A stretch of 64,000 nucleotides of DNA from Candidatus Multivorans sp. (GCA_965224025.1 OZ245033.1:3168001-3232000); one strand, 5' to 3'; counted from the stretch's first letter, positions 8,063 to 22,737 are shown. Notes: generated by a model from the letters alone, not told the origin. A program made the numbers and translations.

Positions 8063-9292
8063 TCAGTTCGAACCGGTCGGGATGTCGCTGAAGGGCCGGT
8101 CGCGGTCGACGCGGATCTCGCCGGGCAGGGTGAGGACGCGCTCGGCGATGATGTTGCGCAGGATCTCGTCCGTTCCGGCGGCGATCCGCATTCCGGGAGC
8201 CGCCAGGTAGGCGTGGTGGAACATGCCGCCTGATGGTGCGTCCTCGCGGCCGCTGACGGAACCGGCCACATCAAGCAGGTCGGCCGCGAACGAGGCGATG
8301 TCCTGCCGGGCGCTGGCGGTGATCACCTTGCAGATCGAGTTCTCGGGTCCCGGCTGCTTGCCCTGGGAGATGGCGGTCAGAGTGCGCAGGAAGGTCAGCT
8401 CGACGCCGCGGCACTGCACGTACCAGTCGGCGATCCGGTCGCGCACGGCGCTCTGCGCCGCAACGGGTTCACCGTCGATCTCGAGTTCAGAGGCGATGCG
8501 CAGGGCGTCGCTCCAGTCGGGCGTCATCTGGTAGCGGCCGTGCCGTTCGTTCATCAGGGTGGTGATCGCCACCTGCCAGCCGTCGCCGACGTTCCCGAGA
8601 CGGTTGTGGTCGGGGACCCTGACGTTCTGCAGGAAGACCTCGTTGAATTCCGCGGTGCCGGGAATCTGCCGGATCGGCCGGGGCTCGATGCCGGCCGACT
8701 TCATGTCGACGACGAAGAAGGTCAGGCCCTTGTGCTTGGCCACGGTCGGGTCGTGGCGGGTGACCAGGATGCCCCAGTCGGCGAAGTGGGCGCCCGAGTT
8801 CCAGACCTTCTGGCCGTTGACGATCCACTCGTCGCCGTCCCGCTCGGCGCGGGTGCGAAGGCCGGCGAGGTCGGAACCCGCTCCCGGCTCGGAGAAGAGC
8901 TGGCACCAGACTTCCTCGCCGCTTGCCAGCTTGGGTAGGTAGCGGCGTTTCTGCTCCTCGGTGCCGTGCGCCATGATCGCCGGCGCGCAGGTGCCGTGGC
9001 CGATGTTGAGGTAGCCGTCGGGAACGTCGAACCTCGCCTGTTCCTGGTCCCAGATCACGCCCTCCATGAAAGTCGCGCCGCGGCCGCCGTGCTCCTTGGG
9101 CCAGGTGATGCAGGCCCAGCCGTCGTCGTACTTCTTCTGCTGCCACCCCTTGACGGCGGTCAGCCCCTCCTCTTCGGAGAGCCCGGCGTAGCGGGACGTG
9201 TCGCCGGGCGCCAGGGGTTCGGCGTTGGCTTCGAGCCACGCGCGCGCCTCGGCGCGGAAACTGGCCTCCTGCGGTGAGTCCTGAAAGTCCAT
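8063..9292 (-). CDS. Acyl-CoA dehydrogenase family protein
   Basis: WCQLFSEPGAGSDLA, NGQKVW and IAAGTDEILRNIIAER. Confidence 0.93.
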   Translation of the reverse strand: MDFQDSPQEASFRAEARAWLEANAEPLAPGDTSRYAGLSEEEGLTAVKGWQQKKYDDGWACITWPKEHGGRGATFMEGVIWDQEQARFDVPDGYLNIGHGTCAPAIMAHGTEEQKRRYLPKLASGEEVWCQLFSEPGAGSDLAGLRTRAERDGDEWIVNGQKVWNSGAHFADWGILVTRHDPTVAKHKGLTFFVVDMKSAGIEPRPIRQIPGTAEFNEVFLQNVRVPDHNRLGNVGDGWQVAITTLMNERHGRYQMTPDWSDALRIASELEIDGEPVAAQSAVRDRIADWYVQCRGVELTFLRTLTAISQGKQPGPENSICKVITASARQDIASFAADLLDVAGSVSGREDAPSGGMFHHAYLAAPGMRIAAGTDEILRNIIAERVLTLPGEIRVDRDRPFSDIPTGSN

Positions 9293-9422: not shown

Positions 9423-9986
9423 ATGAGGGAGTTGCATTCGGTTCGTTCTTTGCTGGGGCCGGTGGTGCGATCGAGCGCAGTCCTGTCGCTGGCCGCGGTG
9501 ACGGCTGTCGCAGTGGCGCCGGTCGGGGCCGCCGCGCAGCGGGGAGGCGCTGAATCGGCGGATATGGGCGGAGAGTGGGTGTTGAACGAGGCCTTGAGCG
9601 ACGATCCGCAGGAGAGACTCTGGCGGTGGATACTGGACCACGCCGATAGCGGTGAAGTCGCACGCGACGGAGGCAACGTCGGCCCGGAGCGGCTCATGAT
9701 CGCCCTGGTCGACGAGGGAGTCCGGATCACCGTTTCGTCGGGCCGGTCCCGCTTGGTCCGGACTGACCGCATGTGGCGCCAGGGGAGCGCCGGCGGCGAG
9801 ACCCAGTCTTTCTGGAAGAAGGCGAAGCTGGTCACCAGGACCAGGGGCCGCGGGCAGGCGCCCACGATCCAGGAGTACCGCCTGAACAGGAAGGGGCAGT
9901 TGGTCGTCGTAAGCACGCTTCCGATGGTCGGCGACGCGCCCTCCATCGTCTTCAAGTGGGTCTATGACCGTGGGGGAGGCGTCTGA
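9423..9986 (+). CDS. Hypothetical secreted beta-rich protein
   Basis: RBS AAGGAGAGG upstream; signal-peptide-like N-terminus; GEWVLN..LSD motif; paralogous remnant at 7.9 kb. Confidence 0.65.
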   Translation: MRELHSVRSLLGPVVRSSAVLSLAAVTAVAVAPVGAAAQRGGAESADMGGEWVLNEALSDDPQERLWRWILDHADSGEVARDGGNVGPERLMIALVDEGVRITVSSGRSRLVRTDRMWRQGSAGGETQSFWKKAKLVTRTRGRGQAPTIQEYRLNRKGQLVVVSTLPMVGDAPSIVFKWVYDRGGGV

Positions 9987-10022
9987 ACCCGGCGCCGATC
10001 CTCAAGCCGTTCTCCCTGTGGT

Positions 10023-10976
10023 TCAGAGCCGGCCCGAGATGATTCCCTGGTCGGCCAGATCGGCGATCTCCGCGGCGTCGAGTCCGAGTTCTCGCAGCAG
10101 GTCGCCGGTGTGTTCGCCGAGTTCGGGCGCCGGTTGGGGCTTCACCTTGTCCTCGCCCTCGATGAGCACCGGGCTGTCCACCGTGCGCAGACGCCCGTAC
10201 TGCGGGTGGTCCAGGTCGCGGAACATGCCGATGGCCTCCAACTGTTCGTCGGCGACGATGTCGTCCAGGTTCGAGACGAGGCTGTAGGCGATCTCGTAGC
10301 GGGTGAACCGCTCGCTCCACGTGGTGACGTAAGAACCGGTACCGGTCCGTTCCCGCTTCAGCAGACCGGCGAGCACGGCCGAGAACAGAGTGACGCCGGT
10401 GGGGTGGTCGCCCGTGCCGCAGCCGAGCGGTCCCAGATGGCCGTCGACAGGCGTGAACGTCGCGACGAGTCCCGAGCGGGTCCAGTAGCAGACCTGGTCG
10501 TAGCCGGGCTTCTCGGCCTCCGGTCCGGTGTGGCCGTAGCCGGTGCCGTGGGCGAAGATGAGCCGCGGGTTGACCTCGCGCAAGCGGTCCCAGGTCATGC
10601 CCAGATCGTCGAGCACGGAGTTGTGGAAGTTGGTCAGGAACACGTCCGCCGTCCCGATCAGCCGGTGGGCGACCGCCTGGCTGCTCTCCTCCTTGAGGTC
10701 GATGACGACGCTCTTCTTGTTCCGGCCGTCGAGCAGGAAGCAGTACGGAATCTCGGAGTCCGGCATGCCGGGCAGATCCTGGAAGTAGCGGTAGAGGTCG
10801 CCCCTGCCAGGCGCCTCGATCTTGATCACTTCGGCCCCGAAGTCGGAGAGCATGGCGCACGCGGAGGGGGCCATGACGATCGTGGCGAGCTCCACCACGC
10901 GGACGCCTTCGAGCAGGGCCCCTTCGGGACAAGGCTGGCTGGCGCCCGGCTCGCCGACGAGCGGGCTTGAGGTCAC
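10023..10976 (-). pseudogene. CaiB/BaiF CoA-transferase III with in-frame internal deletion
   Basis: LEGVRVVEL, FGAEVIKIE, RNKKSVVIDLK and APELGEHT present; sequence jumps GTGSYVTT|WSERF, omitting the central segment; ~317 aa versus ~400 typical. Confidence 0.7.
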
Positions 10977-14109: not shown

Positions 14110-15147
14110 TCAATCGCTCAGTCGCTGCAGAAGGTCCTCCGCGCTCCCGCACTCCTGCGCCGCCCGCATCAGTTCCACTGGCGACTTGTCGCCGAAGACG
14201 GCGAGACGCGCCGCGAGGTCGGCGTCGACGGCTACGCCGCGGCTCTCGAGCAGAGCTGCCACCGCGGCGACCATGCCTTCCGCTCGACCTTCCGCCCGGC
14301 CTTCCGCCCGGCCTTCCGCCCGGCTCTCGTCTCGCTCGTACCGCAGCCACCGATCCTGGTCGGGGCCCGTCCCTTCGCGTGCGCCCAGGGCGCGGCCCAC
14401 CCGGCGCAGCACGGTCATCGTCTGGTCGCTGGGCAGGTGCTCGTTGAGAGCGCGGTGGATCTCCTCCGCCGTCCAGCCGGGGAAGGCGCGGCTGGACGGT
14501 GTGCTCTCGAACCGGCCGTTCTCGAGAACGTGGATCGTGAGCCCCGATCTGCGCGACCTGGGTTGGCTTGCCGCGCGCTCGTCGGGCACGTCGACCCAGA
14601 CCTCCGGGAAGCCCCATGCCTCGTAGCGCGGCAACTTGCCGCGCCGGACATCGGTGGAGTGGTCGACTTCCAGGACGACATCCGGCAGGTCGCCTCCGTC
14701 TACGTCGACTCTCGGGCTCAGTCCGACCGCCGCCGGCGGGTTGACGTACACGATCTGGTCCGCCTGCATGAGAACCCTCATCTTGCCGCTGGCGAAGAGC
14801 CGCACCAGGTCCGTCGTCCCGAACGTCTCGATGAGGGACCCGCTCGAAGCGGCGACCCGTTCGGCCAGCCTCGCCAGGCGTTGGGAGGGCCGTTCGTGAA
14901 ACAGCGTGGTCGGTTCGCAGACCACCATCGCCGTCTCGGTCCGGCTGTCCCAGTACTCGACCCGGCCTTCGTGGTCTTCGATCTTCTCCCGCGGGATCGG
15001 GACCGCCTCGCAGCCGGGGAAGTCGGCGGGGTCGAGCGGCCAGCCGTCGGCGTCGAGCTGGGCGCCCACCGGCCCGGCGGCAGCTTCTCGAGGGTCAGTC
15101 CCCTCGCCCTCCAGGTTGGGAAGAACTGCAGCGGCACCATCAGCCAT
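14110..15147 (-). CDS. Uma2-family PD-(D/E)XK endonuclease-like protein with C-terminal EGRA repeats
   Basis: MQADQIVY...LPDVVLEVD...YEAWGFPEVWV; 12-bp tandem repeats at ~14277-14325 encode (R)AEG. Confidence 0.8.
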   Translation of the reverse strand: MADGAAAVLPNLEGEGTDPREAAAGPVGAQLDADGWPLDPADFPGCEAVPIPREKIEDHEGRVEYWDSRTETAMVVCEPTTLFHERPSQRLARLAERVAASSGSLIETFGTTDLVRLFASGKMRVLMQADQIVYVNPPAAVGLSPRVDVDGGDLPDVVLEVDHSTDVRRGKLPRYEAWGFPEVWVDVPDERAASQPRSRRSGLTIHVLENGRFESTPSSRAFPGWTAEEIHRALNEHLPSDQTMTVLRRVGRALGAREGTGPDQDRWLRYERDESRAEGRAEGRAEGRAEGMVAAVAALLESRGVAVDADLAARLAVFGDKSPVELMRAAQECGSAEDLLQRLSD

Positions 15148-15174: not shown

Positions 15175-15327
15175 AACGGAGGGATCGAAACGCAGCTCCG
15201 GGACGCGGCGAACGAGCTGCGGGCGAACTCGCGGTTGGTCCGGTGTGGACTCGTTGCCGACCCTCCCCGGCTGGCGGTTCGAGACCCGGATGATCCACGC
15301 CGGGGCCGCGCCCGAGCCGATCTCCGG
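15175..15327 (+). pseudogene. Mosaic of short copies of the 5' ends of hsdM and metY
   Basis: 15200-15234 is identical to 16357-16391 (35 bp); 15265-15327 matches 21461-21523 at 58/63. Confidence 0.85.
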
Positions 15328-15439: not shown

Positions 15440-15934
15440 ATGACATCAGCTTCAAGGGCGTCCTTGCCTGCCTCGTTCGCCCTGCAAGTCGAGGCGCGAC
15501 TGGCCGTGCAGCGCGCCGAGTATGGCGCTCGGATCGAGATGACGGGCCAAGCGGGATCTGTATACGAGGGGGACGATGATGTCTATGCCGTACGCGGCGT
15601 GAAGCCGGGCGGCGTGGTGGGCTTTGGCGCCTCCATCAAGGAGGCATGCCGCGATCACACCCAGAGACTGGGACTCGTACTCGACGATCTGCTTCAGGAA
15701 TCCGCGTCCTATGACGAGTTCGAGCGTCGGGCACAGGCACTCTTCGCCTACGAGAGTCCGTGGTCGCGGCAGCGGTTCGACAGGGCACTGGAGCAGGCGG
15801 TAGCGTCTCTGTTCTCAAGCGACGAGACTTCAGTTGCTGAACCCGACCACTCCATGCCTCCATCGTGGCGCCCGGTCGGTCCTGACCAGCATCTGTCGGC
15901 ACCGGTGACGAGCCTCATTCACCGGAATGCTTGA
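15440..15934 (+). CDS. Hypothetical protein, possibly HicB-like fold
   Basis: RBS GGAGG upstream; VYEGDDDVYAVRGVKPGGVVGFGASIKEA resembles the HicB N-terminus. Confidence 0.5.
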   Translation: MTSASRASLPASFALQVEARLAVQRAEYGARIEMTGQAGSVYEGDDDVYAVRGVKPGGVVGFGASIKEACRDHTQRLGLVLDDLLQESASYDEFERRAQALFAYESPWSRQRFDRALEQAVASLFSSDETSVAEPDHSMPPSWRPVGPDQHLSAPVTSLIHRNA

Positions 15935-16319: not shown

Positions 16320-17876
16320 ATGAACGACAGCGGAAACCAGTTGGAGGCGCGGCTTTGGGACGCGGCGAACGAGCTGCGGGCGAACTCGCGGCTCAAGGCG
16401 TCGGAGTACTCGACGCCGGTGCTGGGGCTGGTGTGTCTGCGCTATGCGGACCACAGGTTCCAGGCGGCCAGGGAGGAGATCGAAGGTGCGTCAAGTAGGC
16501 GGCGGCAAGTCGGGCCGGCGGACTACCAGGCGCGGGGCGTGCTTTACGTGCCCCCGGAGGCGAGCTATCGACGCCTGACCCGGCTGCCGGAAGGCGAGAA
16601 CGTCGGCGCAGCCGTCAACGAGGCGATGAGTGCGATCGAGGCCGCCAACCCGGACTTGAAGGATGTTCTTCCGAAGACCTACAACCGCTTCGACAATGCT
16701 CTCCTGAGTGAGTTGCTGAAGACCATGAACTCGGTGCCTATGGACGTCGAAGGCGACGTGTTCGGGAAGATCTACGAGTACTTCCTGGGCAAGTTCGCGA
16801 TGGCCGAAGGGCAGAAGAGAGGAGAGTTCTTTACTCCGACCTCGATCGTGCGCCTGATTGTCGGCATCATCGAGCCCTTCCGGGGCCGCATCTTCGATCC
16901 GGCCTGCGGCACGGGCGGCATGTTCGTCCAGTGCGCCCGCTTCGTTGAAGAGCACCGCCGGGACCCCAACGCGGAGCTCTCGGTCTTCGGTCAGGAGCGG
17001 GTCGCGGACACGGTGCGGCTGGCGAAGATGAATCTCGCCGTCCACGGCCTGGAGGGCGACATCCGGCGGGGCAACGCCTACTACGAGGATCTGCATCGCT
17101 CTCCCGGACGGTTCGACTTCGTGATGGCGAATCCACCCTTCAACGTGAAGAAAGTGGACAAGCCGCGGCTCAAGGACGACAAACGCTTTGGACTCGGCCT
17201 GCCACGCGCCGACAATGCGAACTACCTCTGGATCCAGGTCTTCGCGAGCGCTTTGGCCGAGGGCGGCCGGGCCGGCTTCGTGATGGCGAACTCCGCCGCC
17301 GACGCCGGGCATTCGGAACTTGAGCTTCGGAGGAAGCTGATCCAGAGCGGCATCGTGGACGCGGTCGTTGCCGTGGGACCGAGTTTCTTCTACACCGTGA
17401 CCCTGCCCTGCACGCTGTGGTTCCTGGACAGGGGCAAGCAGGACACGGACCGGGCCGACCGGGTGCTGTTCGTGGACGCGCGAGAGGTCTACCGGCAGGT
17501 CGACCGCGCCCACCGCGACTGGACGGAGGCGCAGATCGAGTTCCTGGCGAACATCGCTCGTCTTTGGCGGGACCGGGCGCCGGAGAACTTGCACGACGGC
17601 GCCGAGATGCTCGCTGAGCACTTCGGGTCGACGCCGGGGTACCGGGATGTGCCCGGCCTTTGCAGGTCGGCGACACTGGCCGAGATCGACGCGCAAGGCT
17701 GGAGTCTGAATCCGGACCGCTACGTAGGCGTGGCCGAGAGGCGAGAGGATGAGTTTGACTTCAAGGTACGGCTCCGCGAGCTGCACGCGGAACTGGAGGG
17801 GTTGAACCAGGAGGGTTGGGAGCTCGAGGAGCGGATTGCGGAGAACGTAGCGTTGTTGCTGGGGACTGAGAAGTGA
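16320..17876 (+). CDS. hsdM: Type I R-M methyltransferase subunit (N6-adenine)
   Basis: [18 protein letters not shown], motif I DPACGTGG and motif IV NPPF. Confidence 0.95.
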
Positions 17877-19351
17877 GGCTGGGTAGCGTCATCGCCGTCA
17901 ATCCCGAGTCCGTTGCCAAGGGCTATCCCCATGAAGAGATCGAGTATGTCGATATCTCGTCAGTTGGCACCGGCACGCTGAAGGGCACCCGACGCCTAGC
18001 TCTTGCCGGCGCGCCGAGCCGAGCGAGAAGAATCGTCAGACAGGGAGACGTGCTGCTCGCGACTGTCCGACCAAACTTGAGAGCCTTCTGGTTTGCTCGG
18101 GAACCGCCTCGCAACACTGTGGCTTCCACGGGTTTCGCCGTGCTGAGGGCAACATGCGGGATTGATGAACGGTACCTCTACTACTTGATCTCGGACCAGG
18201 GCTTCACCGACTACTTGGCGGCCAACGTCAAGGGGGCTGCTTATCCTGCCGTCGACGTTGAGACGATCAGGCGCGCCGAGGTGTCGATCGCTCCGATGGA
18301 AACCCAGCGCAAAGTCGCCGCCGTCCTCTCGGCATACGACGACTTGATCGAGAACAACCTACGCCGGATCGAGGTCCTGGAGGAGATGGCGCGGAACTTC
18401 TACCGCGAGTGGTTCGTTGAATTCCGGTTTCCGGGTCACGAGGGTGCTCGCTTCGTGAAGTCGCCGCTGGGACGGCTGCCGGGCGAATGGACTCCGAGGA
18501 CGCTCGGCGAGGTCGCGACGATACAGACTGGTCGCTCGAATCGGCAGGACGCGGTTGCGGGCGGTGCCTTCGCTTTCTTTGACCCTTCGAGTGAGATCAA
18601 GAGGAGCCAGCGTTTCCTATTGGATTGCGAGGCGGTCATTGTCCCGGGAGAGGGCAAGGAGTTCCTTCCCCGGTACTGGAGCGGTCCGTTCGATCTACAC
18701 CAGCGTGTTTATGCCTTGACGGACTTCAGAGGAATCAGCGGTCTGTTCCTGTACTTTACTCTGCTGCACCGGCGCGAGTACTTTTTCCGGGCTGCCACCG
18801 GAGCCACGGTCAAGTCCCTTCGGAAAGGCATGTTCGAACGTTTTGAGTTCGCGCTTCCCACACAGGAACTAATGAGCCGGTTCGACGCTCATGTTCGGGA
18901 CATTCTGGCGTTGGCGAAGGCGCTTGACGACCGCAACAGCGCCCTTCGTGAGGCCCGCGATCTTCTCTTGCCCAAGCTCGTCTCCGGCGAGATTGACGTT
19001 TCCGACCTGCCCGTCCGCATGCCGCCCCTCTACACGGGCGATCCCCACCGCATCACCGGGTACCGGTTCTTCCGGGAGATCACGGCTCTGCCGTTCGTCA
19101 CCAAGGTCGTGCTCTTCGGGTCGCGCGCGCGCGGCGACCACGAGGAACGCTCGGACATTGACCTCTGCGTCTTCTGCCGGGAGGGCACGACGGAGGAGGA
19201 ATGGATGCAGGTGCTGGCCTGTCTGGAGCGAGACCGCGTCGATACCCTGCTTAAGGTGGATTGCGTGCGCTTCGAGACAGGCAACGCCGCGTTGCAGGAG
19301 AACGTGCTGACGGAGGGCATCGTGCTCTACGAGCGGAGGGAGGGTCCGTGA
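17873..19351 (+). CDS. hsdS: Type I R-M specificity subunit fused to a C-terminal MNT nucleotidyltransferase
   Basis: Two TRDs with conserved helices ([18 protein letters not shown]..., [18 protein letters not shown]), then [20 protein letters not shown] (GSx10DxD); GTGA overlap with hsdM. Confidence 0.9.
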
Positions 19352-19761
19352 GCGAGACGAAGCTGGCGGTCCGGTTGAGCAATGTCGAGAGGAGCCTTGC
19401 GCGACTGGAAGCAGTGGCGCGTAAGGAGATGGACGAGGAGTACGTGAATCTCGACGCTACGGTTCATCGCTTCAACACGGTCTACGAGACCCTGCTCAAG
19501 GCGCTGGACGCCCATCTGGCGTGCGTATACCGGATGTCTCCGAGCGAGCGAGGGCGCTCGAACTTCGAACGGCTGCAAGTCGCCTGGCGTGTGGGTCTGA
19601 TCGACGACGATCAGGTCTGGACCCGCATCCGCAAGGCGCGCAACGCGACGGTTCACGAGTACGACCTGGAGCAGGCGCTGGCGTTGTACCGGGCGGTGAA
19701 GACCTACGTACCGCAGCTTCGCTCGCTGCTGCGGCGGATGCGCGTCGGTCCGGTTGAGTGA
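19348..19761 (+). CDS. HEPN-domain RNase toxin (HI0074/HepT-like)
   Basis: DATVHRFNTVYE..., GLIDD..W and RNATVHEY (Rx4HxY); GTGA overlap with the hsdS-MNT stop. Confidence 0.85.
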   Translation: MSETKLAVRLSNVERSLARLEAVARKEMDEEYVNLDATVHRFNTVYETLLKALDAHLACVYRMSPSERGRSNFERLQVAWRVGLIDDDQVWTRIRKARNATVHEYDLEQALALYRAVKTYVPQLRSLLRRMRVGPVE

Positions 19762-19816
19762 TGGCGGCCCGCAGTGCCAGGCAGGCGCCGAGCAACGTCT
19801 CCGCTTCGCTTCTCGC

Positions 19817-20806
19817 ATGAGCTCGCACGGCTATTCCGAGGACGACCTGGTCAAGCAGCCTGCGCTCGACCTGTTCCGTGAACTGGGCTGGGAGACGGTG
19901 GACGCCTTCGGGGAGTTCGGCCGCGCGGGCGGTGACGGACGGAGCGGGCTGGGTCGGGAAACGGAGGGCGAGGTCGTTCTGGTCGCAAGACTCCGGCCGG
20001 CTCTCGAACGACTCAACCCGAACGCGGGCGAGGCCGCCGTCGACCAGGCGATCGAGGAACTGACGCGCGACCGGTCAAGGATGAGCCCGGCGGCCGCGAA
20101 TCGCGAGACCTACCGCCTGCTGAAGGACGGTGTGCGGGTGAACGTCCCGTCCTTCGAGGAGAACGGCGACACGGTCGAACGGGTCCAGGTCATCGACTGG
20201 AACGTCCCGGCGAACAACGACTTCCTTCTCTGCTCCGAGTTCTGGCTGGCGGGCGAGATGTACCGACGCCGGGCCGATCTGGTGGGCTTCGTCAACGGTT
20301 TGCCGTTGCTGTTCTGCGAAGTGGAGGGCGTCCATCGGCGGCTGGAGGACGCCTACAACGAGAACCTGCGCGACTACAAGGACACCATTCCTCAGCTCTT
20401 TTGGTTCAACTGCCTTGCGTGTGCCAGAACACACCGAGCCGGCCCTGACGGCCGCGAATCGTCCTCAGCGCTCAATGCTGCGGAGTTCTTCAGACAGGTA
20501 GTCGAGTTCACCCAGGATCTCAACGAAGAGGAGCGGCGAGGCGTTGCGGAAAAGCTCGATCCCGACGAACTGGCGGTTTTCGACATCCTGACGAGACCCC
20601 GGGTCGAAATGAGCGACGCGGATTGCAAAAAAGTCAAGGCCACCGCGCGTGAACTCCTGGCGACGCTCAAGGCCGGGAAGTTCGCTTTGGACTGGCGCAC
20701 GAAGCAGCAGGCCCGCGCCGCGGTTCGCGTGACCATCGAGGAGCATCTGGACGCGGGCCTGCCGCGCGCCTACACGCCGGTCCTGTTTCAGAAGAGCGAG
20801 CAGTAA
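19817..20806 (+). pseudogene. hsdR: Type I restriction subunit with the helicase/motor region deleted
   Basis: HsdR N-domain (SEDDLVKQPAL, RRADLVGFVNGLPL) joined near 20410-20470 to the C-terminal domain (LNEEERR, ELAVFDIL, LDWRTKQQARA); no Walker/DEAH motifs; catalytic ExK reads EVE. Confidence 0.88.
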
Positions 20807-20892
20807 CACGCATCCGATCAGTTTGTGTCTGAACCTGATCGCACGGCTCGTACCGAGGCACCGAGAAAGCCGACGGCGCTAACATCCGCGCC

Positions 20893-21423
20893 GTGACTTC
20901 CGCCCTCCACTACAGCGACGCACTGATCCTGGGCATTCTGCGCCGGGTGCGGACGATCGCCGTGGTGGGCGCTTCGCCGAACTGGAAGCGGCCCTCGAAC
21001 TTCGCCATGAAGTACCTGCAGGAGAAGGGATACCGCGTGATTCCGGTGAATCCCCGGGCGGCGGCTCAAGGTGCCTCTATTCTGGGCGAGCGGGTCTGTG
21101 CATCCCTGGCCGAGGTGCCGGCGGCGGTGGACATGGTCGACATCTTCCGTAGCTCGGAGGCGGCTCTCGGAACGACCCGGGAAGCGATCCGGCTGCGGGA
21201 GGAGAAGGGCATCGAGGTGGTCTGGATGCAGCTCGGCGTGCGCAACGACGAAGCCGCCGCCGAGGCGGAGGCGGCCGGGCTCACGGTGATCATGGATCGC
21301 TGCCCGAAGATCGAGTACGGCCGCCTGTCGGGCGAGCTGGGCTGGGGCGGCATCGACAGCGGCGTCATCTCCAGCCGGCGCCCGCGGCTGGTGCGGGTGC
21401 CTGTGCGCGGAGGGTCCGGGTGA
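20893..21423 (+). CDS. CoA-binding protein (YccU-like)
   Basis: IAVVGAS..RPS, VIPVNP, VDIFR, WMQLG and MDRCPKIE. Confidence 0.92.
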   Translation: MTSALHYSDALILGILRRVRTIAVVGASPNWKRPSNFAMKYLQEKGYRVIPVNPRAAAQGASILGERVCASLAEVPAAVDMVDIFRSSEAALGTTREAIRLREEKGIEVVWMQLGVRNDEAAAEAEAAGLTVIMDRCPKIEYGRLSGELGWGGIDSGVISSRRPRLVRVPVRGGSG

Positions 21424-22737
21424 GCGGGGGAGCAGGGCCGAAGCCGCGCCGGGAGGCGGACCCCGGTTGGGGGTTCGAAACCCGGATGATCCACGCCGGG
21501 GCCGTGCCCGAGCCGGTCTCCGGCGCCCGGCAGACGCCGATCTATCAGAACACGGCTTACGCGTTCCACGACGTGGACCACGCCGCTTCGCTGTTCAATC
21601 TGCAGACCTTCGGCTTCATCTACTCGCGCCTGGGGAATCCCACGGTCGCCGCGCTGGAACAACGGCTGGCGAGCCTGGAAGGCGGGCGGGGCGCCGCCTG
21701 CTGCGCGTCCGGCCACGCGGCACAGATGCTCGCGTTCTTCCCGTTGATGGAGCCCGGCGCCCGGTTTGCCGCATCGCACCGGCTCTACGGCGGGTCGATC
21801 ACCCAGTTCAGCAGGACGTTCCAGAAGTTCGACTGGCTCTGCGACTTCGTCGACACGGACGATCTGTCCGCGGTCGAGGCCGCCCTGGGATGCCGGCGCC
21901 AAGGCGCTGTTCATCGAGAGCCTAGCCAATCCGGGCGGCGTCGTTTCGGATCTCGAGGCCCTCGCCGGACTGACGAAGGCCGCGGGCGCCGTGCTCATCG
22001 TCGACAACACGCTGGCCACTCCCTGGTTGTGCCGGCCGATGGACTGGGGCGTCGACCTGGTCGTCCACTCCGCAACCAAGTTCCTGTCCGGCAACGGCAC
22101 GGTCATCGGCGGCGCGTTGGTCGACAGCGGCCGCTTCGACTGGGGCGCTTCCGGCCGCTTTCCAGGGCTGTCGGAACCGGAACCGGCTTACCACGGGCTG
22201 AAGTTCAGCGAGACCTTCGGTGACCTCGCGTTCACCACTCACGCCCATGCCGTGGGCCTGCGCGACCTGGGCGCCGCGATGGCGCCGATGAACGCGTTTC
22301 TGATCCTGCTCGGCATCGAGACCCTGGCTCTGCGCATGGAGCGCCACTGCCGAAACGCGCAGCGGGTCGCCGAGTGGCTGGAGGAGCACCCGAAGGTCGA
22401 ATGGGTGTCTTATGCCGGCCTGGCCGACAGCCCCTACCGGGATCTGGCCGCGAAGTACCTGCCGAAGGGCGCGGGCGCCGTGTTCACGTTCGGAGTCCGC
22501 GGCGGCTACGACGCCGGCATCCGGGTCGTGGAAGCTTGCGATCTCTTCTCGCACCTGGCCAACGTCGGCGACGCCCGCTCGCTGATCCTCCATCCCGCCT
22601 CGACCACCCACCGTCAACTGAGCGACGAGCAGCGTGCCGCCGCCGGCGCCGGCCCCGAGGTTGTGCGACTCTCGATCGGCCTCGAGACGGTGGACGACCT
22701 GATCCGCGACCTCGACCGTGCCCTGGCCGCGGCGTAG
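21420..22737 (+). pseudogene. metY: O-acetylhomoserine sulfhydrylase (MetY/CysD family) with a +1 frameshift, real or sequencing error
   Basis: TPIYQNTAY and YSRLGNPT in the first frame; DNTLATP, HSATKF and HPASTTH in the next; extra G in GGG at 21887-21889. Confidence 0.85.

What the first reader, a model, noticed from the sequence alone, without database searches (positions are those of the whole stretch)
16320..20806. Type I R-M operon with an HsdS-MNT antitoxin fusion and a coupled HEPN RNase in the PrrC position: candidate guard/abortive-infection system
Seen: gene order is hsdM, hsdS::MNT, HEPN, hsdR, with GTGA overlaps at 17873-17876 and 19348-19351. HsdS reads past its normal end ([12 protein letters not shown]) without a stop into ~100 aa carrying an intact GSx10DxD motif (19107-19163). 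The next gene has an intact RNATVHEY (19639-19662). Established: in HepT/MntA (type VII TA) MntA AMPylates the Tyr of the Rx4HxY motif to silence the HEPN RNase; in EcoprrI the HEPN anticodon nuclease PrrC lies between hsdS and hsdR and is activated by the T4 Stp inhibitor. Inference: tethering the antitoxin enzyme to the specificity subunit could link toxin neutralisation to the state of the methylase complex. Anti-restriction proteins or loss of hsdS would then release the RNase, giving a backup defence and/or addiction to the methylase.
Basis: partly seen in the sequence, partly recalled or inferred. Interest (0 to 1): 0.9.

Follow-up and report, generated by a model that had tools for sequence, protein, structure and literature searches.

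The report
Restriction specificity subunit fused to antitoxin
The DNA-recognition subunit of a restriction-modification system here really does carry a toxin-neutralising enzyme domain on its tail, followed by the matching RNase toxin gene; the fusion is a conserved but rare family, though in this genome the restriction enzyme gene itself is gutted.

Summary
The sequence observation holds. hsdM (16320-17876), hsdS fused in frame to an MntA-like nucleotidyltransferase (17873-19351, GSx10DxD at 19118-19162) and an HI0074-type HEPN gene (19348-19761, RNATVHEY at 19639-19662) are intact and joined by GTGA overlaps. The fourth gene is not a working hsdR. It is a remnant that lacks residues ~201-918, the whole motor, of a 1054-aa orthologue.

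The fusion is not an artefact. Independent contigs from two runs match it without a difference. About 46 protein clusters share HsdS-linker-MNT and form one group on an MNT tree. A sub-group also fuses the HEPN domain. Six of 42 genomes of the genus carry the fusion at the same chromosomal site, two of them with every gene intact.

Best reading: a class I HEPN/MNT (type VII-like) toxin-antitoxin cassette sits at the known hsdS-hsdR embedding site, with its antitoxin captured as a domain of HsdS. It probably acts as an addiction and backup module.

Truncated loci argue against a strict need for the methylase complex: they keep CR2-MNT and HEPN but lack hsdM and most of hsdS.

I found no description of the fusion in the papers searched. 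I rate it a new variant of a known kind.

The parts
16320..17876 (+). hsdM, type I N6-adenine methyltransferase subunit (518 aa), apparently intact
   Evidence: PF02384 E 3.6e-81 and PF12161 E 1.4e-20. PADLOC MTase_I E 7e-206. The FDPACGTGG and NPPF motifs are visible in the translation. It is 79-95% identical to hsdM of genus relatives.
17873..19009 (+). HsdS core of the fused ORF (residues 1-379): TRD1, central conserved helix, TRD2 and C-terminal conserved helix CR2 ending [12 protein letters not shown]
   Evidence: PF01420 at residues 82-170. PADLOC Specificity_I models all end at or before residue ~379. The AF2 model has long helices 142-182 and 331-371. Foldseek matches HsdS structures 1yf2, 3okg and 7vs4 at E 1e-13 to 1e-12.
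19010..19048 (+). linker between CR2 and the MNT domain; low-confidence and probably flexible
   Evidence: pLDDT is below 50 at residues 381-389. The stretch from SG to Y.FF is 21-33 aa in the 49 of 50 clade members that have it; solo P0147 lacks CR2. The internal Met (VRMPPLY) is not conserved in relatives.
19049..19351 (+). MntA-like minimal nucleotidyltransferase domain (residues 393-492) fused to HsdS, plus the stop codon; GS-x10-DxD lies at 19118-19162
   Evidence: PF18765 E 3.6e-17 and PF01909 E 9.9e-10. NCBIfam MntA_antitoxin scores 52.8 bits, below its cutoff of 60. PDB sequence hits are 9z7q Cmr1-MntA and 8xeh MNT. Fold hits are 8xeo, 8xeh, 7bxo and 1no5. GSx10DxD is present in 50 of 50 clade members.
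19348..19761 (+). HEPN toxin gene (137 aa, HI0074 / NTase_sub_bind type); R98-x4-H103-x-Y105 lies at 19639-19662; the GTG start overlaps the hsdS-MNT stop
   Evidence: PF08780 E 1.7e-17 and PF01934 E 2e-6. TIGR01987 scores 70.6 bits against a cutoff of 55.8. PDB hits are 1jog HI0074 (E 2.7e-8) and 1wty. In the HEPN alignment the Arg is kept in 11 of 12 rows and the Tyr in 11 of 12, so 10 of 12 carry the full motif.
19817..20806 (+). hsdR remnant: N-terminal nuclease domain joined in frame to the last ~110 residues, with the motor deleted; the junction lies at about 20414-20458
   Evidence: Pfam finds HSDR_N plus only a T1RH-like_C fragment. BLASTP against three full-length orthologues aligns remnant residues 22-221 to orthologue 1-200 and remnant 236-347 to orthologue 919-1030. 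The E-L-K motif reads E-V-E. X1/X2 contigs span the junction with 0 differences. The genome holds no other hsdR of this family; the next best is 28% identical.
15191..15327 (+). scar upstream of the operon: a 44-nt copy of the hsdM 5' end (15191-15234) followed by a 63-nt copy of the metY 5' end (15265-15327)
   Evidence: These are direct repeats D6 (93%) and D2 (92%). The metY fragment is also present in G052. It marks earlier rearrangement at this variable site.
15440..15934 (+). 164-aa ORF upstream of hsdM, conserved with the island in two relatives; function unknown and membership uncertain
   Evidence: No Pfam or PADLOC hit. It is 95% identical in G052 and 81% in G057 at the same position. 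The Atlas search gave only unnamed clusters.

Best explanation
This is a class I HEPN/MNT toxin-antitoxin cassette of the kind called type VII HepT/MntA. It lies inside a type I restriction-modification operon at the hsdS-hsdR junction, and its antitoxin enzyme has become the C-terminal domain of the specificity subunit.

Shown:
- One ORF encodes HsdS, a ~20-aa flexible linker and an MNT domain with an intact GSx10DxD.
- A translationally coupled gene encodes a HEPN protein with R-x4-H-x-Y.
- The fusion belongs to a conserved group of about 46 protein clusters. Target-recognition domains are shuffled freely within it, while the conserved helices, the linker length and the MNT stay fixed.
- In one sub-group the HEPN is fused as well.
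- MNT and HEPN types co-vary as a cassette.

Inferred by homology: the MNT domain oligo-AMPylates Tyr105 of the HEPN and so keeps its RNase silent. Loss or shut-off of hsdS-MNT expression would free unmodified HEPN to cut RNA and stop growth.

Inferred from the pattern of decay: the pair acts mainly as an addiction and stabilising module for the locus, and possibly as an abortive-infection backup. Deletions are tolerated only if they keep the MNT in frame.

In this genome hsdR has lost its motor. What remains is a methyltransferase (M2S1-MNT) plus the toxin-antitoxin pair, not a working restriction system.
For: Domains and motifs. The pair meets the published definition of class I HEPN/MNT pairs, which is PF08780 or PF01934 with RX4HXY next to PF01909 with GSX10DXD (PMC7641770, passages read).

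Reality of the fusion: X1/X2 contigs match with 0 differences across it.

Conservation:
- 23 of the 120 best HsdS homologues carry the MNT.
- 47 clusters of 270-861 aa carry this MNT; 43 have PF01420 and 24 have PF08780.
- In the search of 50%-identity representatives, 9 of the 10 hits at E<=1e-30 are fused forms or carry the CR2 stub. Scores then drop from 125 to 96 bits for ~100-aa solo MNTs.
- On the MNT tree all 46 long fusions fall in one group of 50 rows (SH-aLRT 92). That group also holds two truncated MNT-HEPN forms, one fragment (P0146) and one solo protein (P0147). The triple fusions form a starred sub-group (98).
- GSx10DxD is present in 50 of 50 members, and Rx4HxY in all 24 with a fused HEPN.

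Genus: the fusion is in 6 of 42 genomes, always between the MR_MLE and CoA-binding/metY genes. G002 and G004 are fully intact.

Cassette behaviour: G052 has hsdM 95% and S core 90% identical to the window, but MNT 66% and HEPN 67%.

Retention under decay: the window has lost hsdR; G013 has lost hsdM, the HsdS N-terminus and hsdR. Both keep CR2-MNT plus an intact HEPN. P0125 joins HsdM in frame to CR2-MNT-HEPN.

The site is a known embedding hotspot: DarTG2 lies between hsdS and hsdR in EPEC (PMC12255303, passages).
Against: - No experiment and no RNA data exist for this locus. Toxicity and AMPylation rest on homology alone.
- NCBIfam's MntA and HepT equivalog cutoffs are not reached: 52.8 and 23.2 bits against 60. 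The HEPN is of the HI0074 branch, whose solved members were described as nucleotidyltransferase substrate-binding subunits.
- If addiction were strong, HEPN should rarely decay first. Yet G052 has a frameshifted HEPN beside an intact hsdR, G057 has a stop in HEPN, and G019 has a broken MNT with HEPN Tyr changed to Val.
- Only 9 loci could be inspected, 7 of them from one genus, so the decay pattern is anecdotal.
- An addiction role does not by itself explain why the fusion, rather than two overlapping genes, is so strictly kept.
Confidence: 0.6

Rival explanations
1. Guard or sensor coupling. The antitoxin rides on the M2S1 / R2M2S1 complex, so its activity or stability reports the state of that complex. 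Anti-restriction proteins (Ocr, ArdA, Stp-like), loss of the complex, or its engagement on foreign DNA would stop re-AMPylation or expose the toxin. The result would be abortive infection as a second line of defence.
For: - Covalent tethering is strictly conserved over about 46 clusters, with a linker of constant length.
- The HEPN is further fused to the same chain in 21 HsdS-MNT-HEPN clusters, confirmed at DNA level in L107 beside an intact hsdR.
- The PDB holds a precedent for MntA fused to a subunit of another immune complex: 9z7q 'Cmr1-MntA' (entry title only, no paper found).
- The PrrC/EcoprrI analogy and the published hypothesis that R-M-linked HEPNs are released when the R-M system is neutralised (PMC3710099, passages).
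Against: - G013 and P0125 keep MNT and HEPN without hsdM or without hsdS, so neutralisation probably does not need the complex.
- The linker is predicted to be disordered and the MNT does not dock on HsdS with any confidence.
- hsdR is dead in this window and damaged in 4 of 8 assessable loci, so backing up restriction is not what maintains the module there.
- No ATPase or other sensor domain is present, unlike PrrC.
Confidence: 0.15
2. Functionally neutral fusion. An ordinary two-gene HEPN/MNT cassette landed after hsdS. The hsdS stop was lost once at an overlapping stop/start. The fusion then persisted simply because it does no harm and travels with the conserved hsdS tail used for cassette exchange.
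For: - Genes in this operon overlap by 4 nt, so a single change can fuse them.
- The tree is compatible with a single origin, which needs only one accident.
- The same MNT/HEPN subfamily works as free-standing pairs in G011, G054 and G050.
- Earlier notes of this scan describe cargo cassettes in type I operons that carry hsdS 3' tails.
Against: - Only 1 of 50 clade members (P0147) lacks the HsdS CR2, although a stop plus a start could re-separate the genes as easily as they fused.
- The clade has diverged to ~60% identity within the MNT and sits on unrelated TRDs.
- A second fusion step, to HEPN, was also fixed in a large sub-group.
Confidence: 0.15
3. Not a toxin-antitoxin pair. MNT and HEPN form a two-subunit nucleotidyltransferase (the original HI0073/HI0074 view) that modifies some other target, for example a subunit of the R-M enzyme, DNA or RNA, to tune methylation or restriction.
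For: The closest solved HEPN is HI0074 (1jog) and the fold search finds HI0073 (1no5). Tethering to the DNA-recognition subunit would place an enzyme on DNA.
Against: The full RNase and acceptor motif R-x4-H-x-Y is kept in 10 of 12 aligned HEPNs and in 24 of 24 fused ones. PF08780 pairs with these motifs are included in the tested class I TA definition (PMC7641770, passages).
Confidence: 0.05
4. Assembly or sequencing artefact: a lost stop or an indel created the apparent fusion in this metagenome-derived genome.
For: The genome carries a private frameshift in metY nearby, so indels deserve suspicion.
Against: Two runs' Logan contigs match with 0 differences across the junction. Five other genomes of the genus, two metagenome contigs and about 46 protein clusters carry the same fusion.
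Confidence: 0.01

Closest known systems
HepT/MntA (class I HEPN/MNT, type VII toxin-antitoxin; Shewanella SO_3166/SO_3165, Aphanizomenon HEPN/MNT)
   Same: An MNT with GSx10DxD sits next to a small HEPN with Rx4HxY. The Pfam families (PF01909/PF18765 with PF08780) fall within the published class I definition (PMC7641770, passages). The MNT fold matches 8xeo, 8xeh, 7bxo and 6m6u.
   Different: The antitoxin is not a free ~100-140-aa protein but the C-terminal domain of a 492-aa HsdS. The HEPN belongs to the HI0074 branch and misses NCBIfam's HepT cutoff. The pair lies inside an R-M operon. No biochemistry has been done.
PrrC anticodon nuclease in the EcoprrI type Ic R-M locus
   Same: A HEPN RNase gene lies between hsdS and hsdR of a type I system (the EcoprrI gene order is recalled; the embedding and the Stp story are from PMC3710099 passages). 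The idea of an RNase held silent by the R-M system is shared.
   Different: PrrC is a large ABC-ATPase-HEPN protein silenced by protein contact with EcoprrI and has no antitoxin enzyme. Here the HEPN is 137 aa, has no ATPase, and comes with a dedicated nucleotidyltransferase.
DarTG2 embedded between hsdS and hsdR (EPEC RRDM island)
   Same: A complete toxin-antitoxin pair is inserted at the same hsdS-hsdR site of a type I operon, and the authors call that site a likely recombination hotspot (PMC12255303, passages).
   Different: DarT/DarG are separate genes of a different TA family that ADP-ribosylates DNA. Nothing is fused to HsdS.
Fused MNT-HEPN proteins (FhepTA, Shewanella)
   Same: Antitoxin and toxin lie in one chain, with neutralisation by self-oligoAMPylation and by blocking HEPN dimerisation (PMC13000451, abstract and passages). 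The triple-fusion sub-group found here has the same MNT-to-HEPN order.
   Different: FhepTA has no HsdS part. In the window MNT and HEPN are separate genes.
Cmr1-MntA (PDB 9z7q, 9z7v, 9z7x)
   Same: An MntA-like domain sits at the C-terminus of a subunit of another nucleic-acid-guided immune complex. It is the best PDB sequence hit of the MNT domain (E 4e-5).
   Different: The carrier is a CRISPR type III subunit rather than an R-M specificity subunit. I saw only the entry title and found no paper.

Membership tests
Type I restriction-modification system (HsdM, HsdS, HsdR) | HsdM with an N6-adenine methyltransferase domain and its catalytic and SAM-binding motifs | tested here: met
   PF02384 E 3.6e-81 and PF12161. 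NPPF and FDPACGTGG are present in the translation.
Type I restriction-modification system (HsdM, HsdS, HsdR) | HsdS with two target-recognition domains separated by two long conserved helices | tested here: met
   PF01420. PADLOC Specificity_I models cover residues 3-379. The model has helices 142-182 and 331-371. Foldseek matches 1yf2, 3okg and 7vs4.
Type I restriction-modification system (HsdM, HsdS, HsdR) | HsdR with a PD-(D/E)xK nuclease plus an SF2 translocase motor | tested here: not met
   The gene encodes only 329-350 aa. Residues ~201-918 of the orthologues are missing and E-L-K reads E-V-E. The genome has no second hsdR of this family. Relatives G002, G004, G052 and L107 do meet this feature.
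[quoted passage not shown] | Antitoxin of the PF01909 clan with GSX10DXD | tested here: met
   PF01909 E 9.9e-10 and PF18765 E 3.6e-17. G416-S417-x10-D428-x-D430.
[quoted passage not shown] | Neighbouring HEPN of PF01934 or PF08780 with RX4HXY | tested here: met
   PF08780 E 1.7e-17. R98-NATV-H103-E-Y105. The genes overlap by 4 nt.
[quoted passage not shown] | Scores above NCBIfam's equivalog cutoffs for MntA_antitoxin and HepT_toxin | tested here: not met
   52.8 bits against 60, and 23.2 bits against 60. The HI0074 subfamily model TIGR01987 is passed (70.6 against 55.8).
[quoted passage not shown] | HEPN is toxic as an RNase and is neutralised by AMPylation of the motif tyrosine | not testable with these tools
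   This needs expression and mass spectrometry.
PrrC/RloC anticodon nucleases | N-terminal ABC-ATPase fused to the C-terminal HEPN | tested here: not met
   The protein is 137 aa and the HEPN domain covers residues 9-132. No ATPase gene lies in the operon.
PrrC/RloC anticodon nucleases | Gene lies between hsdS and hsdR of a type I system | tested here: met
   The gene order is hsdM, hsdS-MNT, HEPN, hsdR remnant. The same order with a full hsdR occurs in G002 and G004.
Fused MNT-HEPN (FhepTA-like) | MNT and HEPN in one polypeptide | tested here: not met
   A stop at 19349-19351 separates them in the window. The feature is met in the sister sub-group: 24 clusters, and L107 has no stop.

The most novel reading that the evidence does not exclude
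HsdS-MNT and HsdS-MNT-HEPN may form a distinct class of type I R-M system in which the toxin-antitoxin switch is read out through the DNA-recognition complex. There is one S subunit per M2S1, so a tethered MNT (and, in the triple fusions, a tethered HEPN) is held at one copy per complex. HEPN RNases need to dimerise to be active. Events that change the assembly state of the complex could therefore switch the RNase on and trigger abortive infection: binding of DNA-mimic anti-restriction proteins, degradation of S, or two complexes meeting on unmodified foreign DNA. That would be an R-M system with a built-in guard rather than a passenger TA pair.
Probability: 0.15. Interest if true: 0.85.

Novelty: new variant of a known kind. 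Interest (0 to 1): 0.55.

Why it matters
R-M operons are known to host suicide nucleases (PrrC) and whole TA pairs (DarTG2). [quoted passage not shown] Here the antitoxin enzyme itself is a domain of the specificity subunit, and in a sister group the toxin is too. This gives a natural, compact construct for a long-standing question: are immunity and suicide modules merely neighbours, or are they mechanically coupled? The intact operons of G002 and G004 could be moved into a laboratory host and tested with Ocr or ArdA and with phages.

It is also an annotation point. These proteins are currently labelled only as 'restriction endonuclease subunit S'.

Tried and rejected
It was never accepted because the queue was full, so there is no result of any kind.
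- The AF2 model of HsdS-MNT (pLDDT 68.5, pTM 0.57) gives domain boundaries but no trustworthy inter-domain geometry. The same holds for the natural CR2-MNT-HEPN protein P0134 (pLDDT 62.8, pTM 0.42).
- No RNA holder was listed for this stretch.
It returned 80 distant solo MNT loci at 52% identity or less; 0 of 80 were fused to an HsdS core and 3 of 80 lay near an hsdM or hsdR.
- The plasmid collection gave 3 records, all solo MNT with or without HI0074.
- In the phylum sample, 0 of 391 genomes outside the genus matched at E<=1e-15.
- The promoter and terminator scan found 0 promoter-like sites and no more terminators than in shuffles.
- The AU test of 'all 49 CR2-bearing rows form one clade' did not finish in two 300-s runs.
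- The Atlas search for the 164-aa upstream ORF gave only unnamed clusters.
- Earlier-findings look-ups by sequence and by place returned nothing.
- Separate translation of the MNT from the internal ATG at 19017 was considered and rejected. No SD precedes it, and the Met is absent in most relatives.
- None of the listed papers describes it. The terms 'HsdS' and 'specificity subunit' occur 0 times in PMC3710099, 'HsdS' 0 times in PMC2701414, and 'HsdS' and 'MNT' 0 times in the Payne 2024 preprint. Figures and supplements of these papers were not seen and could show such an architecture.

Full report
**What is in the sequence.**
Between 16.3 and 20.8 kb the + strand carries four co-oriented genes.
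- The first, hsdM (16320-17876), is a complete type I methyltransferase subunit: PF02384 E 3.6e-81, HsdM_N E 1.4e-20, with NPPF and the SAM-binding motif present.
- Its stop overlaps (GTGA, 17873-17876) the start of a 492-aa ORF (17873-19351).
- Residues 1-379 of that ORF are an ordinary HsdS. Evidence is Methylase_S, PADLOC Specificity_I models that all end by residue ~379, two long helices at 142-182 and 331-371 in the AF2 model, and Foldseek matches to solved HsdS chains at E 1e-13 to 1e-11.
- Unfused relatives stop 11-24 residues after the LLLPKL.SGE.D motif. This ORF runs on instead, through a ~20-residue low-confidence linker, into a minimal nucleotidyltransferase domain: PF18765 E 3.6e-17 and PF01909 E 9.9e-10, with G416-S417-x10-D428-x-D430 at 19118-19162.
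- Its stop overlaps (GTGA, 19348-19351) the GTG of a 137-aa HEPN gene, which is preceded by GGAGGGAGGG.
- The HEPN matches PF08780 (E 1.7e-17) and passes NCBIfam's HI0074 model. It carries R98-NATV-H103-E-Y105 at 19639-19662.

**The correction: hsdR is a remnant.**
- The fourth gene encodes 350 aa from the TTG, or 329 aa from the ATG at 19817 where orthologues begin.
- It consists of the N-terminal nuclease domain joined in frame to the last ~110 residues.
- Against three full-length orthologues of 1054-1082 aa from the same genus, it lacks residues ~201-918, that is, the entire SF2 motor.
- The E-L-K of its nuclease motif reads E-V-E.
- The genome has no other hsdR of this family; the next best is 28% identical.
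- This genome therefore cannot restrict with this system. What is left is a methyltransferase and the MNT/HEPN pair.

**Is the fusion real?**
- The window comes from a metagenome-derived genome, and a private frameshift in the nearby metY gene made an indel artefact worth testing.
- Logan contigs of two runs that hold the stretch cover 18491-20192 and 18368-20192 with no difference and no gap. Others cover 20175-21003, across the hsdR deletion junction.
- These runs may be the assembly's own source, so they check the assembler and not the biology.
- The biological check is conservation. Of the 120 best HsdS homologues listed, 23 carry the nucleotidyltransferase domain.
- A search restricted to residues 385-492 found 47 clusters of 270-861 aa. 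Of these, 43 have Methylase_S, 24 also have the HEPN family PF08780, and one (P0125) has HsdM domains instead.
- In a search of 1.84 billion 50%-identity representatives with the 113-aa domain alone, 9 of the 10 hits at E<=1e-30 are long fused forms or stubs that still carry the HsdS CR2. Scores then fall from 125 to 96 bits for ~100-aa stand-alone MNTs.

**The fusion is one coherent family.**
- On a tree of 100 MNT domains (quick IQ-TREE, 100 columns, so weakly resolved), all 46 long fusions fall in one group of 50 rows. The group also holds two truncated MNT-HEPN forms, one fragment and a single solo protein (SH-aLRT 92, branch 0.44).
- The forms with HEPN fused on form a starred sub-group (98).
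- An AU test of this grouping did not finish.
- Within the group GSx10DxD is present in 50 of 50 members, and Rx4HxY in all 24 with a fused HEPN. The stretch from the CR2 'SG' to the 'Y.FF' that opens the MNT is 21-33 residues.
- The alignment of 19 members shows unrelated or swapped target-recognition domains. The window's TRD2, for example, sits in the TRD1 position of P0004. These variable domains hang on an almost invariant framework of central helix, CR2, linker length and MNT.
- The Met in the window's linker (VRMPPLY) is not conserved, so separate initiation of the MNT is not a family feature.

**The genus.**
- Six of 42 species genomes carry the fusion: G000, G002, G004, G013, G052 and G057. 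Three carry free-standing MNT+HEPN pairs of the same subfamily. One (G006) has the same hsdMSR family without the cassette.
- The operon always lies between the same MR_MLE-type gene and the CoA-binding/metY genes. It is a variable allele at a fixed site, and a scar at 15191-15327 made of hsdM-5' and metY-5' fragments witnesses earlier exchange.
- In a sample of 401 genomes of the phylum, none of the 391 outside the genus matched at E<=1e-15. Source labels on two clusters name Acidobacteria and Gemmatimonadetes MAGs.
- G002 and G004 have hsdM, hsdS-MNT, HEPN and a 1054-1056-aa hsdR, all intact. So does metagenome contig L107, where HsdS-MNT-HEPN is one uninterrupted frame.

**The cassette behaves as a unit.**
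- G052 is the closest relative: flanking genes are 92-96% identical, hsdM 95% and HsdS core 90%. Its MNT and HEPN are only 66% and 67% identical to the window's.
- G002, G013, G019 and G057, with more distant hsdM genes, share the window's MNT/HEPN type at 69-77% and 81-83%.
- MNT and HEPN thus co-vary, independently of the rest of the operon. This is what is expected of a cognate pair exchanged by recombination at the hsdS tail.
- Earlier notes of this scan describe cargo cassettes in type I operons that carry hsdS 3' tails.

**Decay pattern.** Nine embedded loci could be inspected, and eight could be assessed for hsdR (G019's hsdR is cut by the contig end).
- hsdR is full-length in four: G002, G004, G052 and L107.
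- hsdR is damaged in four: the window, G013, G057 and L106.
- HEPN is intact with its motif in six: the window, G002, G004, G013, L106 and L107.
- HEPN is frameshifted in G052 and stopped in G057. In G019 it is Tyr-to-Val, and the MNT there is frameshifted.
- Most telling are the deletion derivatives that keep the antitoxin in frame. G013 lacks hsdM and the first ~270 residues of HsdS but keeps part of TRD2, CR2 and MNT plus an intact HEPN. P0125 joins the HsdM C-terminus directly to the end of CR2-MNT-HEPN. P0134 and P0139 are CR2-stub-MNT-HEPN.
- This is the footprint expected of an addictive toxin-antitoxin pair.
- It also suggests that neutralisation does not need an assembled M2S1 complex.
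- The sample is small and seven of the nine loci are kin, so this is a lead and not a statistic.

**Mechanism.**
- The pair meets the published definition of class I HEPN/MNT modules: PF01934 or PF08780 with RX4HXY, next to PF01909 with GSX10DXD.
- In tested members MntA transfers AMPs to the motif tyrosine and thereby blocks the RNase. Replacing the tyrosine leaves toxicity but weakens neutralisation (PMC7641770, passages read).
- The MNT domain's fold matches solved MNT antitoxins, including HEPN-MNT complexes (8xeh, 7bxo, 6m6u, 7ae9) and HI0073. The HEPN's closest solved relatives are HI0074 and TTHA0048.
- I therefore infer that the HsdS-borne MNT AMPylates Tyr105 of the HEPN.
- NCBIfam's MntA and HepT equivalog cutoffs are not reached. 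I file the pair as working like type VII and as meeting the motif-plus-Pfam definition, but not as an equivalog.
- The complex prediction that might have added weak support could not be run.

**What the fusion is for.**
- In its favour are the strict conservation of the tether, the second fusion step to HEPN, and a PDB precedent of MntA fused to the CRISPR subunit Cmr1 (9z7q; title only).
- Against it are the derivatives without hsdM or hsdS, the flexible linker, and the frequent loss of hsdR, including here.
- I put it at about 0.15.
- A passenger TA pair with an addiction and backup role is at about 0.6.
- A functionally neutral one-off stop-loss is at about 0.15.

**Relation to what is known.**
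- Defence and TA genes embedded between hsdS and hsdR are established, for example PrrC and DarTG2 in EPEC (PMC12255303, passages).
- HEPN/MNT clustering with R-M operons was noted in 2013 (PMC3710099, table passage).
- That paper states that R-M-associated HEPN domains fuse to nucleases, helicases and ATPases but not to the methylases. [quoted passage not shown]
- Eight full-text searches turned up no description of an HsdS-MNT or HsdS-MNT-HEPN fusion. I did not see figures or supplements.
- I therefore rate it a new variant of a known kind. It is a real, conserved, rare architecture whose special function, if any, is unproven.
- In this particular window it sits in a restriction-dead operon.

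Noticed in passing
window 21420-22737 (frameshift near 21887): The metY-type gene (PF01053) is split into two frames: profile positions 1-135 in one frame and 138-380 in the other. The extra base is private to this genome, since G052 and G004 are in frame. Logan contigs of X1/X2 support it with 0 differences, while co-occurring strains lack it.
   Followed up: partly
window 15191-15234 and 15265-15327: A 44-nt copy of the hsdM 5' end (93%) lies 30 nt before a 63-nt copy of the metY 5' end (92%), upstream of the present operon. It looks like a relic of an earlier allele or deletion at this exchange site. The metY fragment is also present in G052.
   Followed up: partly
window 15440-15934: A 164-aa ORF with no Pfam or PADLOC hit sits just upstream of hsdM. 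It is conserved at the same place in G052 (95%) and G057 (81%). It may be the first gene or a regulator of the island. The Atlas search gave only unnamed clusters and weak antitoxin-like leads.
   Followed up: partly
window 14110-15147 (- strand); tandem repeat 14275-14322: A Uma2-like putative endonuclease (PF05685, 24.7 bits, just under the cutoff of 27) has a 12-nt tandem repeat in its 3' part that encodes the (EGRA)n-type repeat.
   Followed up: no
L100 (G052) 9861-10263: The closest relative has an intact hsdM, hsdS-MNT and 1054-aa hsdR but a frameshifted HEPN. This is the mirror image of the window, which has an intact HEPN and a dead hsdR.
   Followed up: yes
L018 (G019) 8124-8796: The MNT is frameshifted, and the neighbouring HEPN has Val in place of the acceptor Tyr (RNATVHEV).
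   Followed up: partly
protein P0125 (777 aa) and P0057 (544 aa): P0125 joins HsdM directly to the end of CR2-MNT-HEPN, with hsdS deleted in frame. P0057 is an HsdS with different C-terminal additions (PF04480, PF18741). HsdS C-termini therefore accept other cargo domains too.
   Followed up: no
L107 1742-3750: This metagenome contig has HsdS-MNT-HEPN as one uninterrupted reading frame. The former HEPN start Met is still visible (…RMSENKLANH…). It is flanked by hsdM and a full-length hsdR.
   Followed up: yes
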